Sequence record: PP993145.1
Origin: Escherichia phage phiP4
Direction: 5' to 3' (one strand)
DNA: 64,000 bases
A program made the position numbers and the translations under genes. The first letter of the stretch is position 1. The number at the start of each line of letters is the position of its first letter. Shown piece after piece: positions 7,931 through 50,185 of this stretch. The notes under the pieces are model-generated. The model saw only the letters and a program-made list of their open reading frames with translations. It was not told the DNA's origin and did no database searches.

Positions 7931-8200
7931 TTATTTCTTACCTTTCAGTTGCTTAACTTCACGCTCAAAAGATGCTGCACGACGTTCGGCAGTTGCCTGA
8001 TGTTCTTTCGCAAAACGTGCTTCCTGTTTTGCTAGGTTGAACGCCATAGCATTCTTATTCAGGGAATCATACATCTTTTTCATTGCCGGGATAGACATCT
8101 TCATGAGCTGGCCTTCAAAACCCTGCATGTCGAGGAGAATTGCCAGAACGTTAGCCATTTCATTTTTAGTCATGTTTTCCATTAGAATTTCCTCTCTCAT
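7931..8200 (-). CDS. hypothetical protein (89 aa)
   Basis: ORF track; promoter 8215..8243 immediately upstream. Confidence 0.5.
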   Translation of the reverse strand: MREEILMENMTKNEMANVLAILLDMQGFEGQLMKMSIPAMKKMYDSLNKNAMAFNLAKQEARFAKEHQATAERRAASFEREVKQLKGKK

Positions 8201-18518: not shown

Positions 18519-18824
18519 TTACAGATCGGGGCGTTCATCTTCGAACGCTACGAAGCCATCAAATTCATCATTTGAAATACCACCAGTATAGGTGATGTCC
18601 GCAATCATCGCTTCCATTTTCCTGATCTCCGAGGTTTTCATACCTGCTTTACTATTCTTATAATATTTGCGAGGGTTCCCACACATCCAACAAGAACAGA
18701 TGCAAGGAGTAGTAGTGATAATACCTAACCGCTTAGGGCTTTCTTCATGTGGAAAGACTGTCCAATACTTCTTACGGTTGTTCTTCACACGTTGCCGGTG
18801 ATGGCGTCTTAATGCTCGATCCAC
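18519..18824 (-). CDS. Cys-rich hypothetical protein (101 aa)
   Basis: ORF track. Confidence 0.5.
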   Translation of the reverse strand: MDRALRRHHRQRVKNNRKKYWTVFPHEESPKRLGIITTTPCICSCWMCGNPRKYYKNSKAGMKTSEIRKMEAMIADITYTGGISNDEFDGFVAFEDERPDL

Positions 18825-18905: not shown

Positions 18906-19274
18906 TTACATCGCCTGAGTAAATGTACGACTAATAACGTCGTTCTGTTGTTCACGAGTCAGTGCATTAAATCGAACAGCGTAGCCAGAGACACGGATGG
19001 TCAACTGAGGATATTTTTCAGGATGTTTCTGCGCATCCAAAAGCTGATCACGGCTTAACACATTGACATTTAGGTGCTGACCACCTTCGATTTGAGGGAC
19101 GACTTCCACCTTAACTTCACGGAAGGATTCAGGATCGAATTGCGGTGTGATACCTTCTAGATCTTCAACTAGAACTTTCTGTTTAAGTTCACCGTTGTCG
19201 GAGTATAGCTGAATAATCTGATTTTCATGAACAAGGTTAATTACGCCAGATTTAAGATTTTGATATGCTTTCAT
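18906..19274 (-). CDS. GrcA/YfiD-like autonomous glycyl radical cofactor protein (122 aa)
   Basis: C-terminal half closely matches E. coli GrcA as recalled, including the glycyl radical motif RVSGYAV. Confidence 0.75.
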
Positions 19275-32210: not shown

Positions 32211-32470
32211 AGTGTTACTACATAAGTGATTTCCACACCCCACTATTTATAAATTAGAGAAGAGTTTAAGGGAGAGGTTTCAGACGCCTCATTTTACACG
32301 TTCTAGCCACTAACCGGGATTGCCGCCCCCTGTGTACTAGTTTTACAACTAACCCACCGACTCTATTCAATGCGCTCCGGTTGGGATTCTGCACTCAGCG
32401 TAATCGGCTCGCTGTTCCCTAATTTATGAATATATTATACATAATTTATAAGCATTTAGCAAATGAATTT

Positions 32471-32905
32471 TTAGAAAAATTCACTAGCAATCAAAGCAGT
32501 TGTTTTACCGTCATAACGTCCAGGAAATTCTGCCTTAATAGTTTTCATTAAAAGAGCTTTGGTAATTCCTGGATTTAATTTAACCAGTTCTGCAAAATAC
32601 TCACGAATTTCAGTTTCAGTCAGTTGACTTGGCTGATACTCTTGCAGCATGGAATAAAGCAGTTGCTCATAGTCTACATCAGTAGGAACTTTCATACCAA
32701 CTTTAATAGCGCGCTGTTTTGCATTTTCTAGAGCCTTAATCTGAGCTTTCAGATAGGCTACGAACTCGGTTCGAGTAACAATGTCTTTATCAATACGTTG
32801 CAGATCACCAATCATGGTCTGAAGATTAAGTGCCCGCTCTTTATCACCGTGAGTACGTGCTAGACTAAGCAGTCCACGAAGGGTCATTAGGATATTTTCA
32901 CCCAT
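32471..32905 (-). CDS. hypothetical protein (144 aa)
   Basis: ORF track. Confidence 0.5.
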   Translation of the reverse strand: MGENILMTLRGLLSLARTHGDKERALNLQTMIGDLQRIDKDIVTRTEFVAYLKAQIKALENAKQRAIKVGMKVPTDVDYEQLLYSMLQEYQPSQLTETEIREYFAELVKLNPGITKALLMKTIKAEFPGRYDGKTTALIASEFF

Positions 32906-39892: not shown

Positions 39893-40425
39893 TAATAAGT
39901 AACCAATTCCTGTACAAATCGCAGGCTGTTATCACTGTTTGCGCCAGTTGCGTAAACTAAACGAGTAGATTCATAGTTGTAATCTAGAATCGTATTATCT
40001 AGATGTACATCTGCCTCTAGTTTTTGATCACTAAAGATTGTGGATACAAAAGCACTTTCAATATGTCCATGAATATACATTTCGTACAGTAATGTTGCAC
40101 CACCTAAAACCACTGTCTGTTGATCTTTCAGAAATGTAGGTAAAGCATCCCCAATCTTAGAAATTGGAGTGTAAATATCATGTGTAATATCGTCTGGTAG
40201 TGGACGATCAGCACGAATAAATAGGTCAGAAGCTCCAATCATACGTTCCCTAACGGCGTATGGAAGAGCTAAATAAGTACCCGCACCAATGATGATGTTA
40301 TCTGGATTCAACACGTCCAGTTGAGAATAGAAAGCATCTAGTTCTTCTTTGAAGGAACCCCATGGAAGTTTACCGCGGAGGCCGAACTCCCCATTCGGCC
40401 CAACTGCATACATTGCTGTAATCAT
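39892..40425 (-). CDS. dihydrofolate reductase (177 aa)
   Basis: N-terminal DHFR signature (GPNGEFG..GKLPW); adjacent to thymidylate synthase. Confidence 0.75.
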   Translation of the reverse strand: MITAMYAVGPNGEFGLRGKLPWGSFKEELDAFYSQLDVLNPDNIIIGAGTYLALPYAVRERMIGASDLFIRADRPLPDDITHDIYTPISKIGDALPTFLKDQQTVVLGGATLLYEMYIHGHIESAFVSTIFSDQKLEADVHLDNTILDYNYESTRLVYATGANSDNSLRFVQELVTY

Positions 40426-41567
40426 AAGAAATCTCCAAATTCATTACCCAGATCTTTCAGAGTATCAGTAGAGGTCTCAGTTACCTGACCTACACGGTAA
40501 GCTGCACCAATCTGGATTTCTTGCGGAGCAGGCTGTAGAGAAGTAGTATCCAACCAGTTCATGATCCACGGAATAGGGTTTTTGGTGATTACTGGTAAGT
40601 GACTAGGCCATTCTACACCGATGTGCATAAATGCATTACGCCCCACAAAGTACAGATATTCTTCTAGAAGTTCTGCATTCAAGCCAATCAGACTACGACC
40701 TTTGAAAATGAAATGACCCCATTCAATTTCAGTTTTCAGAGTTTTCAGGAGCTGTGCTGGTGCTTTAGCCACTGCTTCATCTACCAGATCTTTGTCAAAC
40801 TGCTGGAACATAATCTGGATGATTGCTTTAGACATCTGAGTGTGTAGAGCTTCATCTTTAGCAATTAATTGTAGGTTTTTAGCAATACCTTGCAGAATAT
40901 CGTTCTCTGCTAATGCAAAGGTACATGCAAAGGATGCATAAAACTGCATTGCTTCCAGACCATAGATCGCAAAGTAAGCGTCTAATAGTTTAGCCTGAGT
41001 TTCACGTTTAACTTCAGGGAACTCAGTTTCTGGATATGTATTGTCGCCACGATGATCGCGTACTGCGATGAAATACTGACCTAACTGGTACAGTTCATCG
41101 AATAGTTCAACAGAATCAGCGATGCGTGCGAATGCTTCTTGGTTTTTGGTTACAGAATCAATAAATTCTGCTGGATCAGTTAGCACATTACGAATAATAT
41201 TGCTATAAGCACGACTATGCAGATCTTCGAAGTAGCTCCACTGCTTGAGCATACCTTCCAATTCTGGACGACTTACAAGCGGCATAATAGCTGCTTCAGG
41301 AGCACGACTGATAAAGGAATCTGTTTGAGTTTGCCATGCTAAGTTCAGGAGTGTAATTTCCTGAATTTCCCGTGGGAGATTAGGCCATTGTTTCTTATCT
41401 GCTTCCAGACTGATTTCAGTTTCAGTCCAAAATTGAGAGCGTTGCAGAAGTGCCAGACGTTCTAGTTCTGGATGTGCTACACGTACATAATCTGCGATAC
41501 CGAGAGAATCGCCCAGGAAAAGATCAGCGTTAGTATGGTCCCAATTCAGGTTTAGTAAAGTAGTCAT
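40422..41567 (-). CDS. nrdB: ribonucleotide reductase class Ia small subunit (381 aa)
   Basis: Ferritin-like di-iron protein downstream of the large subunit; C-terminal FGDFL-type tail. Confidence 0.8.
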   Translation of the reverse strand: MTTLLNLNWDHTNADLFLGDSLGIADYVRVAHPELERLALLQRSQFWTETEISLEADKKQWPNLPREIQEITLLNLAWQTQTDSFISRAPEAAIMPLVSRPELEGMLKQWSYFEDLHSRAYSNIIRNVLTDPAEFIDSVTKNQEAFARIADSVELFDELYQLGQYFIAVRDHRGDNTYPETEFPEVKRETQAKLLDAYFAIYGLEAMQFYASFACTFALAENDILQGIAKNLQLIAKDEALHTQMSKAIIQIMFQQFDKDLVDEAVAKAPAQLLKTLKTEIEWGHFIFKGRSLIGLNAELLEEYLYFVGRNAFMHIGVEWPSHLPVITKNPIPWIMNWLDTTSLQPAPQEIQIGAAYRVGQVTETSTDTLKDLGNEFGDFL

Positions 41568-41673
41568 TGATTTTCCTCTTTCTCACTATTTCAGGAATAT
41601 TATAGCAAATCTGGTAGCGATTAGCAAGTAAAATTTCAAAGAAAAAGGAGACCCGAAGATCTCCTTGTTTTTA

Positions 41674-44003
41674 TTAAATAGTACAACCACCGGATGCACA
41701 ACCTGCTGCTTCTTCTCCAGCACCTCCACCATTTGCAGTATTGAAGTTAGCATAGTAGAAAGTTTTCCACCCATACTTAACAGCAGTCATGAAATCACGA
41801 ACTACTACTGGGCCAGGAATGATTTCATTCTCAAACTTGGTGTAGTCATAGTACATATTCGTACTGATAGACTGGCTGAAGAATTTCTGCATAGTTGCTA
41901 CCCACTTGATCCACTCGATACGATCTACATCATAAGCCAGTTTATAGCTCATTAACGTTTCCCAATCGGTTGCACCTGGAGCAATTGCAATTACTTTATT
42001 CACTGCACTACCCTTGATAGATACAATCTTACGAGGCGGTTCAATAGAGTTAGTAACACCTAACAGAACAGAAGAACTTTCTCCTGGCATCTGAGCAGTC
42101 AGAACAGAGTTACGCATACCATATTTCAGAATATCTGCACGCAGAGACTCCCAATCCATTTCTAGACCTACGGATACCAGTTCATCAACAGTTTTCTTGT
42201 AAGTGTCGATTACCAGAATTCCTTTAGATGGTTTAGTACGATCAAACCACTCACATGCACCCTGTTCTTTAGCTAGGCGTACAGAGGCTTTATGCAGAAA
42301 GTAAGACAGTTTTTCAGCCTCACGGTGAATCCAGTTACGGGCTTCAATACCTTCATAAGCCAGACCTTCTGCTGCCATTGCACCTGCTGCGTTCATCAGG
42401 CCAATACCAACATTACGACGTTTCTTAGCCGTATATTCCATAGTTGGGAACGGATAATCCTGAATTTCAATAATTGTATCAACGAATTTCAGGAGGATGT
42501 AGCAAGTTTTTTCCCACTCAGCCAGAGATTCCATGCGTCCAAGTACAACACCACCTAAGTTACACAGAGATACTTCACCAATATCCTCCGGCTTCATTTG
42601 ATCAAGCTGCTCTTTTGTCTTATACAGCTCTGTGATATGATGGAACGGGCGTGTAGGCTGAGTAATTTCAACACAAAGGTTTGTCATACGGATCGGATCA
42701 AGGAAGTTACCGTGACGGTTAGATTCCCCGATGTGATGAGCGTACATACGTCCTGTTTCCATTCGGATACGTAGCCAAGTATCTAGGATTTCTTTTGCAG
42801 AGACTTTAGGAGCTGCAGGAACTGTTTTTCCTTCGTGGTCGATCTTTGTAAGAGATGCCACACGTTTCTCCGCTGCCACGTAGATTTCTTCAAATTTAGC
42901 CTCGTCATCACTATAAAACGCTTCATGAACTTCTGGAGCATAGAAGTATGACATTAGCGTAATATCTTCGTTTTTAAGATAACGTTTTAACAAAAGATTG
43001 TTAAAGCTCAGAGAATAATCCATCTTATCGATTTTATTCTCATCTGTAGCACGTTGTTGCTTAACCTGCATCAATTGAATGATTTCAGGGTCGAAGTACG
43101 GATAAGACACTGTGGCAGAACCACCACGAGTTTGCTGAGTATTGGCCTTTACTGAGCGGTCAATGTGTCGATAATATGGCAGTTTTCCGGAATGCGGGAA
43201 TGCCCCATTTCGCACCGGATCAGCAATTGATCGGCTTTCAAGATGATACCCGATTCCCGCTCTGGCTGCGACCATTTTGAAGACGATGTGCTCGGCGGTG
43301 TCGATTGAATCCAACGTGTCAGTGGAATCCACGAGGCAGCAACTAGCAAATCCACGGTCACTAGAGCGCAGACCAACCAGTGGCGGCGTAGGAACGTTGA
43401 TTTTGTGGAGTGACATTGCATTGTAGAGGTCGATTGCATCTAGAATTGTCCAGTTAGGTTGAGATAACATCGCCATTGCCATACCCATGTAGGCAAACTG
43501 CGGGGTTTCATAAATTTCACCAGTGGCTATGTTACGACGGGAATACTTATCAAAGAACTGTTTCAGCCCACCACTAGTAAAAAGACGGTCACGATCGTGG
43601 TCTATAACCTGATTCAGAGCTTCAAATTGCTCATCGGTAATCCATGCACTCATGTCTTCCCATGCACCTACGCTAACCATATGGTCATGGAAGAAGCGTA
43701 GAGAGGGTGGTTCGAAAGAATCATAAAGGCGTTTACGCATTTGCGCAAGACGTAATTCCTTTGCTGGCACATCGTATGCTGGATTATCTTTGATAAGACT
43801 TTCAGCAGCTTTAATTAATGCATCCATCAGAGTGTCGGAATCTACAACCCCTTTAGGCAGAGTTTTTTGAGCAGCCATAGTAATGGCTGACCAACTTACA
43901 TCAACTGTTTTGCAACCATACTCTGCCCAACCATTGAGTTTTTCAGGAGCAAAGTCTTCTACAGTACCGTCACGTTTAATTACTTTTTCAATGCGATGGC
44001 TCA
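41674..44003 (-). CDS. nrdA: ribonucleotide reductase class Ia large subunit (track ORF 41674..44109; start moved to ATG at 44003)
   Basis: ATP-cone start (MSHRIEKVIKRDGT) preceded by AAAGGAA RBS; catalytic core; C-terminal Cys pair. Confidence 0.8.
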
Positions 44004-44146
44004 TTTGGCTTTCCTTTTTATAGTTATCAGGATTTAAGGAATATTCTACTTTATTATCGGTCATTAGGCAAATAAAATTTTCTGATAGAAAAGGCCCGAG
44101 TATTTTCATACCCAGGCCCTGTATATTACCAGTCTAGCTTTTTAGC

Positions 44147-44369: not shown

Positions 44370-45131
44370 TTACACCTTCCCCATGTCTTTAAAAATATCA
44401 TAGAATGCTTTAGACTCAACAGAACGAACGTTATCAATCAATTCGATCATTGAGAATGGGGCATTTTCGTATTTTTCATAGACTTCCATAAGGAGTGCTA
44501 GACCTGAGTCACCTTTAATGTCTTTCTGAGCTATATCTCCGCAGATAATTAAACGGCAGTCTTGTCCTACACGAGTTAGGAGACAAATCATTGCCTCAAC
44601 GGAAATATTCTGAGCTTCATCGACAATTACATAGGAGTTGTTGAAAGTTCTGCCACGAGCATGTTCGATAGCCAAAAATTTAATTTTCTGACGTTCGACA
44701 TATCCTTTATATGCATGATCGCCGATGGCCCATTTCATACCATCAGCTATTGGCTCCAACCAAGGCTCTAGCTTTTCCGCTAGATCACCAGGAAGCATAC
44801 CAAGAGACTTACCTAGAGGTTCATTAGGACGTACGAGAATCACTTGCTCAATATCTGAGTGAATGTCTACGAGTTCCTGAGCTGCAAGAACGGACGGAAT
44901 AAAGGTTTTACCAGTACCTGGCTCGCCGATACCCACAGTCACTGTGTTGTTCTTGATCATATTGATATATGATTTTTGCTCGCGGTTTTTACCTACTAGG
45001 GATTTAGCAACTGGGTTAGCGTAATCATTAGAAAAATCAGCCTGAATTACGTTGTTCTCATATTTGTTGCCACGCTTTCTTGAACCATTGCGGTTCTCTC
45101 TTTTTTGACGTGCTTTTCCCATAAATAACAC
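44370..45131 (-). CDS. phoH: PhoH-like ATPase (253 aa)
   Basis: Walker A GEPGTGKTF and Walker B-like ICGD, characteristic PhoH layout. Confidence 0.75.
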   Translation of the reverse strand: MLFMGKARQKRENRNGSRKRGNKYENNVIQADFSNDYANPVAKSLVGKNREQKSYINMIKNNTVTVGIGEPGTGKTFIPSVLAAQELVDIHSDIEQVILVRPNEPLGKSLGMLPGDLAEKLEPWLEPIADGMKWAIGDHAYKGYVERQKIKFLAIEHARGRTFNNSYVIVDEAQNISVEAMICLLTRVGQDCRLIICGDIAQKDIKGDSGLALLMEVYEKYENAPFSMIELIDNVRSVESKAFYDIFKDMGKV

Positions 45132-45416
45132 TCCTATAGTGTACTTCGCTAACAGAGGATCAACAAAAAGATCTTGTTTATCAACTTACAAATATATTAT
45201 ACCAATATATACAGTAAAAAGCAACTACAATTTTAAATAAGCCTATGATATTGCATTTAAATAAAAAATTTGCTTGCTTTTAACGTGAGATGTGTGATAC
45301 TAGATAATCATTTTATATCGCGTGCACGAGTGCGTGATTATACAATTTTTAATAGAGATTGGCAAATAAAATTTTTTGACTCAGATCATGTTACAGAACT
45401 TTATAGTAAAATATTG

Positions 45417-45445
45417 TTGACATCCGCCCTCGAATGAGTTATAAT
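45417..45445 (+). promoter_or_regulatory. sigma70 promoter TTGACA-N17-TATAAT upstream of nrdD
   Basis: Perfect consensus hexamers with 17-nt spacer. Confidence 0.65.
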
Positions 45446-45474: not shown

Positions 45475-47349
45475 ATGAATCGCAATGAAGAACTAAAGTA
45501 TAAAGAAATGCAGGCGTTAATTAGAAACTGCAAAGAGATTATCGAAGGGTCAGCAGATGAAGAGCTGCTGTTTAATAATGCTAATAAACCCTCAGAACGT
45601 TTCCCTACACAAAGGGATATGCTTGCAGGTGAGTTGAGTAAGTATCTGATTCTAGAAGAAATGCCAATTCAGATTCGAAATGCTCATATGATTGGGGATA
45701 TTCATTTCCATGATGCTGATTATGCTGCATTAGGCATGACTAACTGTTGCCTGGTAGCTCTGGAAGATATGTTAAAGAATGGTATGAAGGTTGGTAATGC
45801 TGAAATTAGCACTCCAAACTCTATCACTACTGCGGCGGCTATCACTGCTCAGATTATCACTCAAGTTAGCTCCCATCAGTATGGTGGTACTTCTGTAGAT
45901 CGCCTTGATGAAGTATTAGCCCCTTATGTTCGTAAATCCTATGACAAAAATCATGCGTTTGCAAAACGTTGGACTAAGGATGAAGCCAAAGCATCTGTAA
46001 TGGCTACGGAGATGACTGAAAAAGAAGTCTATGACGCTTGTCAGGGTTTAGAATATGAAATCAATACCATGTTTAACTCTAATGGTCAGAGTCCATTTAT
46101 TACCTTTGGTTTTGGTCTAGGAACTTCCTGGGAAGCACGTCTAGTACAGAAAGCAATACTGAAAGTACGCATGGATGGTTTAGGTATCAATAAACGTACA
46201 GCTATCTTCCCAAAACTGGTATTTGTACTTCGTGATGGCGTAAATATGAAACCAGGAGATGTTAATTATGACATCAAGAAGTTAGCTATGAAATGTACTG
46301 CTGAACGTATGTATCCAGATTATATCAGCTATGACAAAGTTGTAGAAGTTACTGGAGACTACAAAGTTTCTATGGGCTGCCGTTCATTCCTAGCTGCTAC
46401 AGAAGATGGTGAAACTGCCGGTCGTAATAACTTAGGTGTTGTTTCTGTAAACTTGCCTAGAATTGCTATCGAAGCTGAAGGAAATATTGACCTATTCTTT
46501 GATTTGCTTGAGCTACGTGTGGATACAGCATTAAAAGCGTTGGAGTGGAGAGTTGATCGCTTAAAATATATCCAAGCTAAAGCTGCACCCATCCTCTATA
46601 TGTCAGGAGCTTTTGGGTTACGCTTGGAGCCTGATGAATATGTATTCGATCATTTCTATAACCGTGCTTCTGTATCCCTAGGGTATATTGGTTGCCATGA
46701 AATGCTACAGTTCATGTTTGGCAAAGATGTAGACACAATGTCCGAGACCTGCATCAAGTTTGTTCAGCGTGTATTGCAGTACATGCGAGATAGGGTAGAT
46801 CAGAAGAAGGAAGAAACTAAGTTAGGTTATAGCCTATATGCTACACCATCGGAATCCCTATGCGATCGTTTTTGTCGTCTAGACCGTGAGTATTTCCCGG
46901 AGCATGAAGATATTCTGTCCAAAGGATACTACACTAACTCGCACCACCTTGATGTAGAACGTAAAGTTGCTCCTAACGTCAAATTTGATTATGAATCTAA
47001 CTTTACTCCGATTGCTTCTGGTGGGTGCATTTCCTATGTAGAACTACCAGATATGAAACGATTCCCAGATGCACTGGAATGGGTTATTAATTATGCCGCT
47101 AGTAAAGTTCATTACTTCGGTATCAATACTCCAGTGGATTCTTGTGGTAAATGTGGATTCTTAGGTGAAACAATAGCATCCGAGGATGGATTTAAGTGCC
47201 CTATCTGTGGTAATCATGACCCCGAAACTCTTGAAGTAACTCGTCGAGTTTGTGGGTATCTTGGAAATCCGGGTGCTCGTCCCTTTAACCCCGGCAAACA
47301 GCACGAGGTGATGGGCAGAGTGAAACATCAGGATATTCGAGCTAAATAA
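45475..47349 (+). CDS. nrdD: anaerobic ribonucleoside-triphosphate reductase (class III RNR, 624 aa)
   Basis: C-terminal glycyl radical motif RVCGYLG and Cys-rich zinc site (CGKCG ... CPICG). Confidence 0.8.
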   Translation: MNRNEELKYKEMQALIRNCKEIIEGSADEELLFNNANKPSERFPTQRDMLAGELSKYLILEEMPIQIRNAHMIGDIHFHDADYAALGMTNCCLVALEDMLKNGMKVGNAEISTPNSITTAAAITAQIITQVSSHQYGGTSVDRLDEVLAPYVRKSYDKNHAFAKRWTKDEAKASVMATEMTEKEVYDACQGLEYEINTMFNSNGQSPFITFGFGLGTSWEARLVQKAILKVRMDGLGINKRTAIFPKLVFVLRDGVNMKPGDVNYDIKKLAMKCTAERMYPDYISYDKVVEVTGDYKVSMGCRSFLAATEDGETAGRNNLGVVSVNLPRIAIEAEGNIDLFFDLLELRVDTALKALEWRVDRLKYIQAKAAPILYMSGAFGLRLEPDEYVFDHFYNRASVSLGYIGCHEMLQFMFGKDVDTMSETCIKFVQRVLQYMRDRVDQKKEETKLGYSLYATPSESLCDRFCRLDREYFPEHEDILSKGYYTNSHHLDVERKVAPNVKFDYESNFTPIASGGCISYVELPDMKRFPDALEWVINYAASKVHYFGINTPVDSCGKCGFLGETIASEDGFKCPICGNHDPETLEVTRRVCGYLGNPGARPFNPGKQHEVMGRVKHQDIRAK

Positions 47350-47354
47350 GCTAA

Positions 47355-47400
47355 TCAGCCGGGTTGCTAGTCGACCTGGCTTTTATTTTATTTGCTTTCA
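47355..47400 (+). terminator. rho-independent terminator after nrdD (imperfect GC hairpin + TTTTATTTTATTT)
   Basis: Hairpin followed by T-run; overlaps the next promoter. Confidence 0.5.
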
Positions 47401-47448: not shown

Positions 47449-47661
47449 ATGAGAGTTCACAAGGTAGATAAAGAACGTATCTATTTTATTATGGATTCTG
47501 GGGCGTATGGTTCCATTCTCCGTGGGGATATAACTAAATTATGTTTAGTAAATACTTGGATGAACGAAGGGAAGATTGATCCTAGGGTGGGATTGTGCTT
47601 ATCCGAACCCGCCCTTTCTATTGCTAATGCAGAAATTGAAATGTTTGAGGAACAAGAATGA
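47449..47661 (+). CDS. hypothetical protein (70 aa)
   Basis: ORF track. Confidence 0.5.
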   Translation: MRVHKVDKERIYFIMDSGAYGSILRGDITKLCLVNTWMNEGKIDPRVGLCLSEPALSIANAEIEMFEEQE

Positions 47662-47861
47662 AAAACGTAAAACATCTTAAATATCGCTTAATTTACAACG
47701 GACGTATGGAAACAGAAGATCTGGCCCAGTTAGCTATTAATTCTAATGAGGTTACAGTGCGTGCGCTGGCAATTGAAAAGTTGCGTGCCTCTTATGAAAA
47801 TCGTGTTATGGAACTAGAGGAGAAACTTTATGGCATTCTCGAAGCTGATGCTACCAGATAA
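47658..47861 (+). CDS. hypothetical protein (67 aa)
   Basis: ORF track; ATGA overlap with previous. Confidence 0.5.
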   Translation: MKNVKHLKYRLIYNGRMETEDLAQLAINSNEVTVRALAIEKLRASYENRVMELEEKLYGILEADATR

Positions 47862-48051
47862 GGGTTTAAACGACGCTTTGGAAAACGCATTAATGCAGCA
47901 GTGGGAAACTGGCTATAAGGATGGTGTTGAATCCTGTGCTACTATGCTAGAAGTTATTGCTAATACCTTAATGGAGAAAGGCAATAAAGAATTAGCTGAG
48001 CTATTAGACAGTATTGGGCAAAACTTCAGAGAACAGGTGAAAAATGCGTAG
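47830..48051 (+). CDS. hypothetical protein (73 aa)
   Basis: ORF track. Confidence 0.45.
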   Translation: MAFSKLMLPDKGLNDALENALMQQWETGYKDGVESCATMLEVIANTLMEKGNKELAELLDSIGQNFREQVKNA

Positions 48052-48859
48052 ATTAATTATTATTAGTGGTGCAGGTTTGAGTGTTGAAAGTGGTGTACGA
48101 GCTTTTCGTACTGATACTGCTAGTGGTAAAGCATTGTGGGATGATTATGATCTAGAAGAGGTATGTAATATTCATGCCTTTCGTGGTAATTTTTATCATA
48201 AAACCCATATGTTTTACAACAAGCGTCGTGAAGAGCTAAAAACTGTTGAACCCAATCTTGCGCATTTGCGTATTGGTGAATGGTATAAACAATATCCAGG
48301 CCAAGTAGTAAACTTGACTACCAACGTTGATGACCTTATTGAGCGTGCTGGCGTTCCACATAGTGACATTCTGCACATTCACGGATATTTAAAAGAGGTT
48401 GTTGTAGCTGATAGCTACAATAGTAGCAATAAACGGATTATTGATGTAGGGTACAATTCTATTGATCCAGACGATTATAAATGGGTTAAACCTAATGTAA
48501 TCTTTTTTGGGGAGCATGCTCCAGCGTACGCAGAAATGTACAATGTTTTTGATGGTATTACCAGTCAAGATATGATCGTTGTGGTTGGTTGCTCTAACCA
48601 AGTAATTAACTTCTACTGGGAATTATTTCCTGTTCTTAATTTGACTGCTGCCAAGCTAATGGTTGTTAACTACTATGATAGTGCCCTAGCGGCGGAACCG
48701 AGCTATCAAGGTATGACTCGTAGTGAGATGTACCAGCTGGAAGAACGCGGTATCCCTTACTGGAGTAAAGGTGCGGTAGATGCTTTCAGTGATCCTGATT
48801 TTATTGCTCGTGTAGAAGCTCATTTAGAGGGTAGACCTTATGTGTCAGGAAATAAGTAA
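48044..48859 (+). CDS. Sir2-family (sirtuin-like) NAD-dependent protein (271 aa)
   Basis: N-terminal GAGLSVESGVRAFR resembles the sirtuin NAD-binding motif GAGIS.ESGI..FR. Confidence 0.6.
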   Translation: MRRLIIISGAGLSVESGVRAFRTDTASGKALWDDYDLEEVCNIHAFRGNFYHKTHMFYNKRREELKTVEPNLAHLRIGEWYKQYPGQVVNLTTNVDDLIERAGVPHSDILHIHGYLKEVVVADSYNSSNKRIIDVGYNSIDPDDYKWVKPNVIFFGEHAPAYAEMYNVFDGITSQDMIVVVGCSNQVINFYWELFPVLNLTAAKLMVVNYYDSALAAEPSYQGMTRSEMYQLEERGIPYWSKGAVDAFSDPDFIARVEAHLEGRPYVSGNK

Positions 48860-49352
48860 TACTCCAATTATTTTTCTAGACATTGATGGGGTGCTCAATT
48901 CGAGCATCTCCCAATATCATGCGCCTGATGATGAAAAGATTTTCTTTGGAAGTGATTGGGTTTTCAAACCGCTTCTCAAGGCTTTTCAGGACTTTATTCG
49001 TCCTTCTCCAATAATGATTGTTGGAGTATCATCTTGGTTCTCTGTCAGAAATGAGATGGAGAACGTTCAGATTATGACCGGATTAGGTCTTATCGATCGT
49101 TTTCTTGGTACAACGGATTTTACTGGGGGTGGATTATCTAGGGGTAATTCTGTTCTTCGCTTCGTTGAAAAGCATAAGCTCAAACATTGGTGTGTGCTTG
49201 ATGATGCGGGTGCTATGATGTATCAGTATCCAACGGTTATAGTCAACGGTAGGACTGGAATAAATCTTCAAGATTTAAGAGCTGTTAGCTATATGTTAGA
49301 ATTTAGTCCGGATCTTGAAATGTGTAAATCCTTACAACAATTTAAGGTGTAA
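48840..49352 (+). CDS. HAD-superfamily phosphatase-like protein (170 aa)
   Basis: Motif I FLDIDGVLN near the N-terminus. Confidence 0.5.
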   Translation: MCQEISNTPIIFLDIDGVLNSSISQYHAPDDEKIFFGSDWVFKPLLKAFQDFIRPSPIMIVGVSSWFSVRNEMENVQIMTGLGLIDRFLGTTDFTGGGLSRGNSVLRFVEKHKLKHWCVLDDAGAMMYQYPTVIVNGRTGINLQDLRAVSYMLEFSPDLEMCKSLQQFKV

Positions 49353-49354
49353 AT

Positions 49355-49783
49355 ATGTTCAACAATGTATTCTCTAAAGAAGCTAACCCAATTTTGGTTA
49401 ACTTTTGGCGTACTCTCCCAGCTAGCCTGTATAATGAGACTATTAACTCTTTGAAAATATGGTGTGAGAATAACGAAATCTCCTTTGCTTTTAAAGATGA
49501 TATTGATGAGGCTCCCTGTATTGGTTTAATTGTTCAGGTAGAGGAGGGTCTTGAAGAGATTGTCGGCTGGAAAGAGTTAGATGAAATGGGCTTAGTTTTT
49601 GCATTAAACTATAAGCTGTTTATGCCTGCTAAGCATCGCCTCGTTGTTAACTATAAAACTAGTGAATCTCCTGGTTTTCAGGTTAATGAACGTTATGGTT
49701 GGTCTTACTCACCGGAAGAAGTAAATGAGGGGATTCAGAAACTTCGACGTTTCGGGTATATGATCCCAGGTTTAACTGCTTAA
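49355..49783 (+). CDS. hypothetical protein, tandem paralog A (142 aa)
   Basis: Shares blocks with the next ORF (DEAPCIG/DDPCVG, MGLVFALN/MGLIVALN, PGL C-terminus). Confidence 0.5.
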   Translation: MFNNVFSKEANPILVNFWRTLPASLYNETINSLKIWCENNEISFAFKDDIDEAPCIGLIVQVEEGLEEIVGWKELDEMGLVFALNYKLFMPAKHRLVVNYKTSESPGFQVNERYGWSYSPEEVNEGIQKLRRFGYMIPGLTA

Positions 49784-49792
49784 GGAGGCAGA

Positions 49793-50185
49793 ATGGAACA
49801 AGTATATTGGCGTCAGATTGATCCTAGTTTGGTGAAACGTGCGGAGAAGCTGCTACAACGTTGGTTGGGGGTAAGACAAGCCTCCTTCACTTTTCCGGAG
49901 CAGCAAATAGATGATCCCTGTGTTGGTGTTTTCCTATCCGGCTACGCGGGGGGATGGGAGTTGGATTGGAATGAATTGTCTGCTATGGGCTTGATTGTTG
50001 CCCTAAACTTCTCTTTGTTCCATCCACGTGGTTTGGCCATATGTCGTGTGCCGGATGATGGTTGTTCGCCATATCTTTTACAGGTGGAAGATGATATTTG
50101 GGAGTACACTCCAGATATTCTCGCAGAAGCTAAAGAACAATTAAATCGTGTTGGGATTTATGTTCCGGGCCTAAATGATGAATGA
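49793..50185 (+). CDS. hypothetical protein, tandem paralog B (130 aa)
   Basis: Paralogous to the previous ORF. Confidence 0.5.
   Translation: MEQVYWRQIDPSLVKRAEKLLQRWLGVRQASFTFPEQQIDDPCVGVFLSGYAGGWELDWNELSAMGLIVALNFSLFHPRGLAICRVPDDGCSPYLLQVEDDIWEYTPDILAEAKEQLNRVGIYVPGLNDE

What the first reader, a model, noticed from the sequence alone, without database searches (positions are those of the whole stretch)
45475..47349. Class III anaerobic RNR (NrdD) alongside class Ia RNR, with no NrdG activase seen
The phage carries both aerobic (NrdA/NrdB, 40422..44003) and anaerobic (NrdD) reductases. None of the ORFs in this window shows a radical-SAM CxxxCxxC activase motif, so NrdD may depend on host NrdG or an activase elsewhere in the genome.
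Basis: partly seen in the sequence, partly recalled or inferred. Interest (0 to 1): 0.5.

Follow-up and report, generated by a model that had tools for sequence, protein, structure and literature searches.

The report
T5-type phage NrdD without its activase
This T5-like phage carries an intact anaerobic ribonucleotide reductase (NrdD) but no gene for the enzyme that switches it on, so it almost certainly borrows the host's NrdG; this gene content was already tabulated for T5-like phages in 2013.

Summary
ORF 45475..47349 (+) is a full-length class III ribonucleotide reductase, NrdD. It scores Pfam NRDD 2.7e-172 and passes the NCBIfam equivalog cut-offs. All catalytic, zinc-site and glycyl-radical residues are present. 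NrdB, NrdA and PhoH lie upstream on the other strand.

No NrdG or PflA-type radical-SAM activase is found in the window. None is found in the complete genome of a 97-98% identical relative (phage Lindwurm) by six-frame HMM search, although the same HMM detects NrdG in a Vibrio T5-relative at 3.7e-63.

The window is a Tequintavirus/Epseptimavirus-type (T5-like) phage. Dwivedi et al. 2013 already list T5, SPC35 and EPS7 as nrdB-nrdA-nrdD without nrdG.

New here:
- nrdD is under strong purifying selection (dN/dS 0.01-0.02).
- It has its own perfect sigma-70 promoter and a terminator.
- Its glycyl-radical loop is more host-like than that of coliphages that encode their own NrdG.
- The phage also encodes a GrcA-like glycyl-radical protein, again without an activase.

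Best explanation: host NrdG, already present in anaerobic cells, activates the phage NrdD. This is inferred, not shown. The finding is ordinary and of low interest.

The parts
45475..47349 (+). nrdD, a class III (anaerobic, glycyl-radical) ribonucleoside-triphosphate reductase of 624 aa with no N-terminal ATP-cone. Key residues are C91, C302, N319, zinc-site C557/C560/C575/C578, and glycyl-radical G594 within RRVCGYLG.
   Evidence: Pfam NRDD 2.7e-172 and Gly_radical. NCBIfam equivalogs are above cut-off. It is 54% identical to E. coli NrdD residues 113-705. Residue mapping to T4 and E. coli NrdD is. dN/dS is 0.010-0.019. PDB relatives are 9d3x and 1h78.
45417..45445 (+). Consensus sigma-70 promoter (TTGACA-17-TATAAT, 12/12) ending 30 nt upstream of the nrdD ATG.
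   Evidence: Pattern scan. This is a consensus match only. The total number of promoter-like sites in the region is not above the shuffled expectation, but this is the only 12/12 site.
47357..47391 (+). Terminator-like hairpin (10 pairs, 6 G-C) plus a T-run, starting 8 nt after the nrdD stop codon. It suggests nrdD is a one-gene transcription unit.
   Evidence: Lindwurm annotates a terminator at the equivalent place, but on the opposite (-) strand in locus coordinates.
41674..44004 (-). nrdA, the class Ia RNR large subunit. The longest ORF runs to 44109. The start at 44004 is taken by homology with the 776-aa Lindwurm CDS.
   Evidence: Pfam Ribonuc_red_lgC 2e-119 and Ribonuc_red_lgN. Lindwurm annotation.
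40422..41567 (-). nrdB, the class Ia RNR small subunit.
   Evidence: Pfam Ribonuc_red_sm 3.8e-36.
44370..45131 (-). phoH-like ATPase gene, transcribed divergently from nrdD. This is the neighbour reported for T5, SPC35 and EPS7.
   Evidence: Pfam PhoH 3.3e-61. PMC3653736 text.
18906..19274 (-). GrcA/YfiD-like autonomous glycyl-radical protein (122 aa, motif RVSGYAV). It is a second glycyl-radical protein with no phage-encoded activase.
   Evidence: Pfam Gly_radical 4e-18. It is 80% identical to E. coli PflB residues 700-760, E=7e-33. NCBIfam GrcA TIGR04365 scores 121 bits, below the 170 cut-off. There is no PflA in the phage.

Best explanation
The window comes from a T5-like phage (Demerecviridae, Markadamsvirinae).

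nrdD is an early gene read by host RNA polymerase from its own consensus sigma-70 promoter. It encodes a functional class III ribonucleotide reductase that lacks the ATP-cone. By analogy with T4 NrdD, it probably escapes dATP feedback (inferred).

The phage has no activase of its own. The glycyl radical at G594 would be installed by the host's radical-SAM activase NrdG. NrdG is already present in anaerobically growing E. coli, Salmonella or Shigella, together with SAM, the flavodoxin system and formate. The activated enzyme then adds anaerobic dNTP supply on top of the oxygen-dependent phage NrdAB.

The phage GrcA-like protein would in the same way use host PflA. It could help sustain pyruvate formate-lyase, which makes formate, the class III reductant.

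Shown here: gene identity, intact residues, selection, absence of a phage activase, and presence of nrdG in E. coli K-12. Inferred: the cross-activation itself.
For: - NrdD identity is established and all essential residues are intact. The same residues are invariant in five other Demerecviridae NrdDs.
- Purifying selection is strong in lineages without nrdG: dN/dS is 0.010 at dS 0.13 and 0.019 at dS 0.70.
- No NrdG or PflA is found in the window or in the whole Lindwurm genome. As a positive control, Dax gp77 scores 3.7e-63 with the same HMM.
- Per-genus counts of NrdD-hit records minus NrdG-hit records track the number of T5-like records: Salmonella 397-126=271 vs 276, Escherichia 1054-928=126 vs 131, Klebsiella 346-265=81 vs 82, Shigella 111-107=4 vs 4.
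- The literature lists T5, SPC35 and EPS7 as nrdB-nrdA-nrdD. [quoted passage not shown]
- E. coli K-12 carries nrdG next to nrdD.
- The glycyl-radical loop (E. coli residues 671-705) is 69-79% identical to the host in the four NrdG-less T5-likes. It is 51-63% identical in five enterobacterial phages compared as NrdG-encoding: T4, EduardKellenberger and EC001 have an annotated or HMM-detected NrdG, while NrdG status was not checked for KP1LMA and Munch.
- 'VTRRVCGYLG' is identical to the host sequence.
- Genes downstream of nrdD differ between Lindwurm, Sugarland and Stubb, so there is no conserved adjacent partner.
Against: - No experiment shows that E. coli NrdG activates a T5-type NrdD, and none was found in the paper library.
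- T4 keeps its own NrdG although its NrdD is 59% identical to the host's. From my memory of Young et al. 1994 (not checked here), T4 NrdD needed the T4 gene 55.9/nrdG product in E. coli. Cross-activation is therefore not automatic.
- The host-like C-terminus argument rests on one NrdG-less lineage. The C-terminus/core identity ratio does not separate the groups.
- The true source genome is not in the collection. The best match for window 1-25000 is 95.8% identical, so the part of this phage outside the window was checked only by proxy.
Confidence: 0.8

Rival explanations
1. An NrdG-type activase is encoded elsewhere in this phage's genome, outside the 64-kb window.
For: The window covers only about 60% of a ~110-kb genome. 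The exact source genome was not found. A Vibrio member of the same family, Dax, does encode NrdG.
Against: The whole Lindwurm genome lacks it. T5, SPC35 and EPS7 lack it. Per-genus counts imply that essentially all ~500 enterobacterial T5-like records lack it. In Dax, NrdG lies 3 genes from NrdD, a region the window covers.
Confidence: 0.03
2. The phage NrdD is a decaying or non-catalytic remnant that is never activated.
For: The cognate activase is missing. Dwivedi et al. note that the functionality of incomplete RNR gene sets is unknown.
Against: dN/dS is 0.01-0.02. C91, C302, N319, the four zinc cysteines and G594 are all invariant across genera. The full-length gene occurs in >500 records. 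It has its own perfect promoter.
Confidence: 0.05
3. A phage protein unrelated to radical-SAM enzymes acts as an activase. Alternatively, it acts as an adaptor that redirects a host activase (NrdG or PflA) to the phage NrdD or GrcA-like protein. Candidates are the small unknown ORFs after nrdD and the Cys-rich 101-aa ORF next to the GrcA-like gene.
For: Many neighbouring ORFs have no known function: phrog_20147, 5236, 5827 and 4499. The 101-aa Cys-rich ORF lies directly downstream of the GrcA-like gene.
Against: All known glycyl-radical activases are radical-SAM enzymes (established knowledge). The ORFs after nrdD are not conserved between Lindwurm, Sugarland and Stubb and lie beyond a terminator. 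No Fe-S motif occurs in them.
Confidence: 0.05
4. A host glycyl-radical activase other than NrdG, such as PflA, activates the phage NrdD.
For: The phage also carries a PFL-type glycyl-radical protein that must use PflA. Activases of this family share the same fold (one search shows weak cross-hits between NrdG and PFLA models).
Against: The NrdD C-terminus, with its Zn-ribbon and RRVCGYLG loop, is of the NrdD type and nearly identical to the host NrdD substrate of NrdG. Activases are generally specific to their partner (RNRdb calls NrdG a 'specific activase').
Confidence: 0.04

Closest known systems
Bacteriophage T5 / SPC35 / EPS7 nrdB-nrdA-phoH-nrdD cluster (Dwivedi et al. 2013, PMC3653736)
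   Same: Same gene set and order, with phoH between class I and class III genes and no nrdG. The window is 95-98% identical at the nucleotide level to many Tequintavirus/Epseptimavirus genomes. The NrdD protein is 100% identical to that of Shigella phage SSP1.
   Different: Nothing material. This is another member of the same group.
Bacteriophage T4 NrdD/NrdG
   Same: NrdD lacks the ATP-cone, is 50% identical, has the same catalytic and zinc residues, and coexists with phage class Ia NrdAB.
   Different: T4 encodes its own NrdG beside nrdD. The T4 glycyl-radical loop is the least host-like of those compared, 51% against 71% here. T4 nrdD carries a group I intron.
E. coli K-12 NrdD-NrdG operon
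   Same: 54% identity over the catalytic core. The Gly loop is nearly identical, 'VTRRVCGYLG.P.ARPFN.GKQ.EV..RVKH'.
   Different: The host enzyme has an N-terminal ATP-cone of about 100 residues and an adjacent nrdG. The phage gene has neither.
Vibrio phage Dax (Demerecviridae, Thalassavirus) NrdD + gp77 NrdG
   Same: Same virus family. NrdD lies next to the replication-origin-binding protein gene and is 52% identical.
   Different: The Dax NrdD is 724 aa, 100 residues longer than the 624-aa enzyme here. Dax encodes a bona fide NrdG, with NCBIfam NF008335 at 236.6 bits against a 199 cut-off, although it is annotated 'hypothetical'.
E. coli GrcA (YfiD) / PflB C-terminus
   Same: The phage ORF 18906..19274 shares 80% identity with PflB residues 700-760, including RVSGYAV.
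   Different: The N-terminal half is divergent, and the score is below the NCBIfam GrcA equivalog cut-off.

Membership tests
Class III RNR catalytic subunit (NrdD) | Full-length match to NrdD family models above curated cut-offs | tested here: met
   Pfam PF13597 scores 574.8 bits (cut-off 26.2). NCBIfam NF006732 scores 844 bits (cut-off 657) and TIGR02487 scores 588.6 bits (cut-off 326).
Class III RNR catalytic subunit (NrdD) | C-terminal glycyl-radical motif RVCGY with the radical glycine (T4 G580 / E. coli G681) | tested here: met
   G594 lies in TRRVCGYLG. It is invariant in 6 Demerecviridae sequences.
Class III RNR catalytic subunit (NrdD) | Active-site cysteines and asparagine (T4 C79, C290, N311) | tested here: met
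   C91, C302 and N319 align with them.
Class III RNR catalytic subunit (NrdD) | Four-cysteine zinc site in the C-terminal domain (T4 C543/546/561/564) | tested here: met
   C557, C560, C575 and C578.
Class III RNR catalytic subunit (NrdD) | Cognate NrdG activase encoded with it | tested here: not met
   There is no NrdG in the window or in the complete Lindwurm genome. This is a feature of the two-gene system, not of the NrdD protein family. The host supplies nrdG.
Class III RNR catalytic subunit (NrdD) | Oxygen-sensitive, formate-dependent NTP reduction | not testable with these tools
   Needs anaerobic enzymology.
NrdG / glycyl-radical activating enzymes (radical SAM) | Sequence similarity to NrdG or PflA anywhere in six frames | tested here: not met
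   The best hmmsearch --max E-value is 0.5 (7.7 bits, a 39-aa fragment in Lindwurm). In the window the best is 3.6, and PflA phmmer gives a best of 1.1. The positive control scores 3.7e-63.
NrdG / glycyl-radical activating enzymes (radical SAM) | N-terminal CX3CX2C cluster motif in a protein of at least ~150 aa | tested here: not met
   The only in-gene motif is in the 101-aa ORF 18519..18824, at residues 41-48, with no family match.
Autonomous glycyl radical cofactor GrcA (for ORF 18906..19274) | PFL-type Gly_radical domain with RVSGYAV | tested here: met
   Pfam 4e-18. It is 80% identical to the PflB C-terminus.
Autonomous glycyl radical cofactor GrcA (for ORF 18906..19274) | Score above the NCBIfam equivalog cut-off | tested here: not met
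   TIGR04365 scores 121.1 bits against a cut-off of 170. The ORF is GrcA-like and is not filed as an equivalog.

The most novel reading that the evidence does not exclude
The missing activase might not simply be replaced by pre-existing host NrdG. T5-like phages could instead encode a non-radical-SAM factor among their many unknown small early proteins. Such a factor would recruit or retarget a host glycyl-radical activase (NrdG or PflA) to the two phage glycyl-radical proteins, NrdD and the GrcA-like protein. That would make host nrdG or pflA conditional dependency factors under phage control in the anaerobic gut.
Probability: 0.05. Interest if true: 0.65.

Novelty: already known. Interest (0 to 1): 0.15.

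Why it matters
If host NrdG does activate the phage enzyme, T5-like phages depend on a host protein made before infection for anaerobic dNTP supply. T5-like phages are widely proposed for therapy and biocontrol of E. coli, Salmonella, Shigella and Klebsiella in the oxygen-poor gut. nrdG loss could then reduce phage yield under anaerobiosis. This is a modest, testable point about phage-host metabolic dependence. It is not a new kind of system. The gene content itself has been in the literature since at least 2013.

Tried and rejected
- The weak tblastn hit of E. coli NrdG residues 4-57 to window 32605..32444 (E=1.0; 8178..7996 in Lindwurm, E=0.9) was rejected. The ORF is a cysteine-free YqeY-like protein.
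- The 101-aa ORF 18519..18824 with CICSCWMC was rejected as an activase. It is too short, has no family match, and scores E=18 against the NrdG HMM.
- The three small ORFs after nrdD (47449..48051) were considered as an NrdG remnant or partner. They have no Pfam or NCBIfam hit, fall only in PHROGs of unknown function, are not conserved in Sugarland or Stubb, and lie beyond a terminator.
- Looser cysteine motifs (CX4CX2C, CX5CX2C, CX2CX4C) were found only in short open segments of 33-99 aa.
- VMJ710 was at first suspected to be a T5-like Vibrio phage with NrdG. It is an ICP1-type Mohonavirus. Dax is the valid Demerecviridae example.
- The ratio of C-terminal to core identity to host NrdD was tested as a marker of host-activase use. 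It does not separate NrdG-less from NrdG-encoding phages; only the Gly-loop identity does, and weakly.
- Literature searches for experimental cross-activation or T5 nrdD phenotypes found nothing. Torrents et al. 2001 was not held.
- The exact source genome could not be identified, because the genome is mosaic and the best match is 95.8%.

Full report
**What the window is**

The region 44000-50500 matches 548 phage records. The best matches are 96-98% identical Tequintavirus/Epseptimavirus genomes such as Lindwurm, mar004NP2 and SPLA5b. Window 1-25000 gives the same picture, with a best match of 95.8%. The exact source genome is therefore not in the collection and the genome is mosaic. The Lindwurm annotation shows the classical T5 early-region order: RNase H, thymidylate synthase, DHFR, NrdB, NrdA, PhoH, then divergently NrdD, Sir2, the origin-binding protein, ligase, helicase/primase and DNA polymerase.

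**Checking the observation**

- ORF 45475..47349 (+) encodes 624 aa. It matches Pfam NRDD over its full length (2.7e-172) and Gly_radical. It exceeds the curated cut-offs of two NCBIfam NrdD equivalogs. Its nearest solved structures are class III RNRs 9d3x and T4 1h78.
- NrdB (40422..41567) and NrdA (41674..44004; the longest ORF reaches 44109) are confirmed by Pfam.
It is the 101-aa ORF 18519..18824. It has no Pfam or NCBIfam match, belongs to a PHROG of unknown function, and has no similarity to NrdG. It is about 50 residues shorter than the shortest NrdG used here, so I do not regard it as an activase.

**Is an activase really absent?**

- tblastn with E. coli NrdG gave only chance-level hits. 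I verified this query against the K-12 locus.
- I built an HMM from six NrdGs: E. coli, T4, VMJ710, Enterococcus phage TJE1, Clostridioides phage LIBA2945 and Citrobacter phage Michonne.
- I searched every stop-to-stop segment of at least 25 aa in the window and in the complete Lindwurm genome, with filters off. The best E-value was 0.5, for a 39-aa fragment. PflA gave nothing either.
- The same HMM found the un-annotated NrdG of Vibrio phage Dax at 3.7e-63, so the search was sensitive enough.
- By synteny, the part of the genome outside the window holds the pre-early genes, the structural genes and the remaining replication genes. Lindwurm has no activase there.

At population level, the number of phage records with an NrdD hit minus those with an NrdG hit almost equals the number of T5-like records, genus by genus:

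| Genus | NrdD hits | NrdG hits | Difference | T5-like records |
|---|---|---|---|---|
| Salmonella | 397 | 126 | 271 | 276 |
| Escherichia | 1054 | 928 | 126 | 131 |
| Klebsiella | 346 | 265 | 81 | 82 |
| Shigella | 111 | 107 | 4 | 4 |

**Already published**

- Dwivedi et al. [quoted passage not shown] They note phoH between the class I and class III genes in SPC35, EPS7 and T5.
- Their Table S1 lists all three phages as nrdB-nrdA-nrdD with an empty NrdG column.
- RNRdb (2009) counted 30 phage NrdD against 21 phage NrdG.
- The AKFV33 genome paper lists nrdA, nrdB, nrdC and nrdD only.

**Is the gene functional?**

- Aligned with T4 and E. coli NrdD, the protein keeps C91, C302 and N319 (T4 C79, C290, N311). 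It also keeps the four zinc cysteines and the radical glycine G594.
- These residues are invariant in Lindwurm, S132, Proteus phage Stubb, Klebsiella phage Sugarland and Vibrio phage Dax.
- Nei-Gojobori dN/dS is 0.010 against Lindwurm (dS 0.13) and 0.019 against S132 (dS 0.70). This is strong purifying selection in lineages without nrdG.
- A 12/12 consensus sigma-70 promoter ends 30 nt before the ATG, and a hairpin with a T-run follows the stop codon. This suggests a one-gene early transcription unit. These are pattern matches only.
- The protein starts at the equivalent of E. coli residue 113 and has no ATP-cone. T4 NrdD is the same in this respect. By analogy the enzyme probably escapes dATP inhibition (inference).

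**How it most likely works**

A constrained glycyl-radical enzyme needs an activase. The only candidate consistent with the data is host NrdG, which is encoded next to nrdD in E. coli K-12. From established knowledge, nrdDG is induced under anaerobiosis.

T5 shuts off the host early, so the activase would have to be the pool already present when an anaerobic cell is infected (inference).

The substrate loop supports compatibility:
- 'VTRRVCGYLG' is identical to the host sequence.
- Loop identity to E. coli (residues 671-705) is 69-79% in the four NrdG-less T5-likes.
- It is 51-63% in the five enterobacterial phages compared as NrdG-encoding (T4, EduardKellenberger, EC001, KP1LMA, Munch). NrdG is annotated or detected for the first three but was not checked for KP1LMA and Munch.

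This evidence is weak. It rests on one NrdG-less lineage, and the cruder C-terminus/core ratio does not discriminate.

The counter-example is T4, which keeps its own NrdG. From memory of Young et al. 1994, which I could not check, T4 NrdD required the T4 nrdG product in E. coli.

**Family context**

Vibrio phage Dax belongs to the same family (Demerecviridae, Thalassavirus). It has a 724-aa NrdD and, three genes downstream, a genuine NrdG annotated as hypothetical. Absence of nrdG is therefore a trait of the enterobacterial branch (Markadamsvirinae, Novosibvirus, Sugarlandvirus), not of the whole family. Whether this reflects loss or independent gain was not resolved.

The genes downstream of nrdD differ between Lindwurm, Sugarland and Stubb. 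This argues against a conserved cryptic partner.

**In passing**

ORF 18906..19274 (-) is a GrcA/YfiD-like glycyl-radical protein. It is 80% identical to the last 61 residues of E. coli PflB. No PflA is present. The phage thus carries two glycyl-radical proteins and no activase. That fits a general reliance on host activases. It also links to class III chemistry, because PFL makes formate, the NrdD reductant (established knowledge; the link is inference). Salmonella phage Munch has a glycyl-radical cofactor gene directly after its nrdD.

**Verdict**

The 'host NrdG' reading is the best explanation, at about 0.8 confidence. The 'activase elsewhere' reading is very unlikely. The arrangement is a known property of T5-like phages, so novelty is 'already known' and interest is low.

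Noticed in passing
window 18906..19274 (-): A GrcA/YfiD-like autonomous glycyl-radical protein of 122 aa with the RVSGYAV motif. It is 80% identical to E. coli PflB residues 700-760. No PflA activase is present in the phage. Lindwurm annotates its homologue only as 'acetyltransferase-related'.
   Followed up: partly
window 18519..18824 (-): A conserved 101-aa Cys-rich ORF (PCICSCWMCGNPRK; phrog_4499, unknown function) lies directly downstream of the GrcA-like gene. It is the only gene in the window with a CX3CX2C string. Its function is unknown.
   Followed up: partly
window 48044..50185 (+): Downstream of nrdD lies a run of co-oriented genes: Sir2-family (48044..48859), HAD_SAK_2 'Swiss Army Knife RNA repair' HAD domain (48840..49352), and two paralogous DUF7415 proteins (49355..49783 and 49793..50185).
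   Followed up: no
window 47449..47661 vs L001 23450..23830: The first gene after nrdD is replaced between close relatives. The window has a 70-aa ORF (phrog_20147), whereas Lindwurm has a 126-aa ORF (phrog_11748). This is a small mosaic hot-spot just past the nrdD terminator.
   Followed up: partly
window 32471..32905 (-): A YqeY-like ORF (Pfam 4.4e-4, below cut-off) is 144 aa here but 184 aa in Lindwurm (L001 7933..8487). Their C-terminal ends differ.
   Followed up: no
L011 8001..8483 (Vibrio phage Dax gp77): A bona fide NrdG (NCBIfam NF008335 at 236.6 bits, cut-off 199) is deposited as 'hypothetical protein'. It is separated from nrdD by three ORFs of 70, 330 and 565 aa with no assigned function.
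   Followed up: partly
L017 2071..2352 (Salmonella phage Munch): This jumbo phage has a 'glycyl radical cofactor' gene immediately after its nrdD. NrdD and GrcA-like genes therefore co-occur in an unrelated phage.
   Followed up: no
window 45337..45365 (-) and 45417..45445 (+): Back-to-back near-consensus sigma-70 promoters (11/12 and 12/12) sit in the 343-bp phoH-nrdD intergenic region. This is typical of strong T5 early promoters.
   Followed up: no
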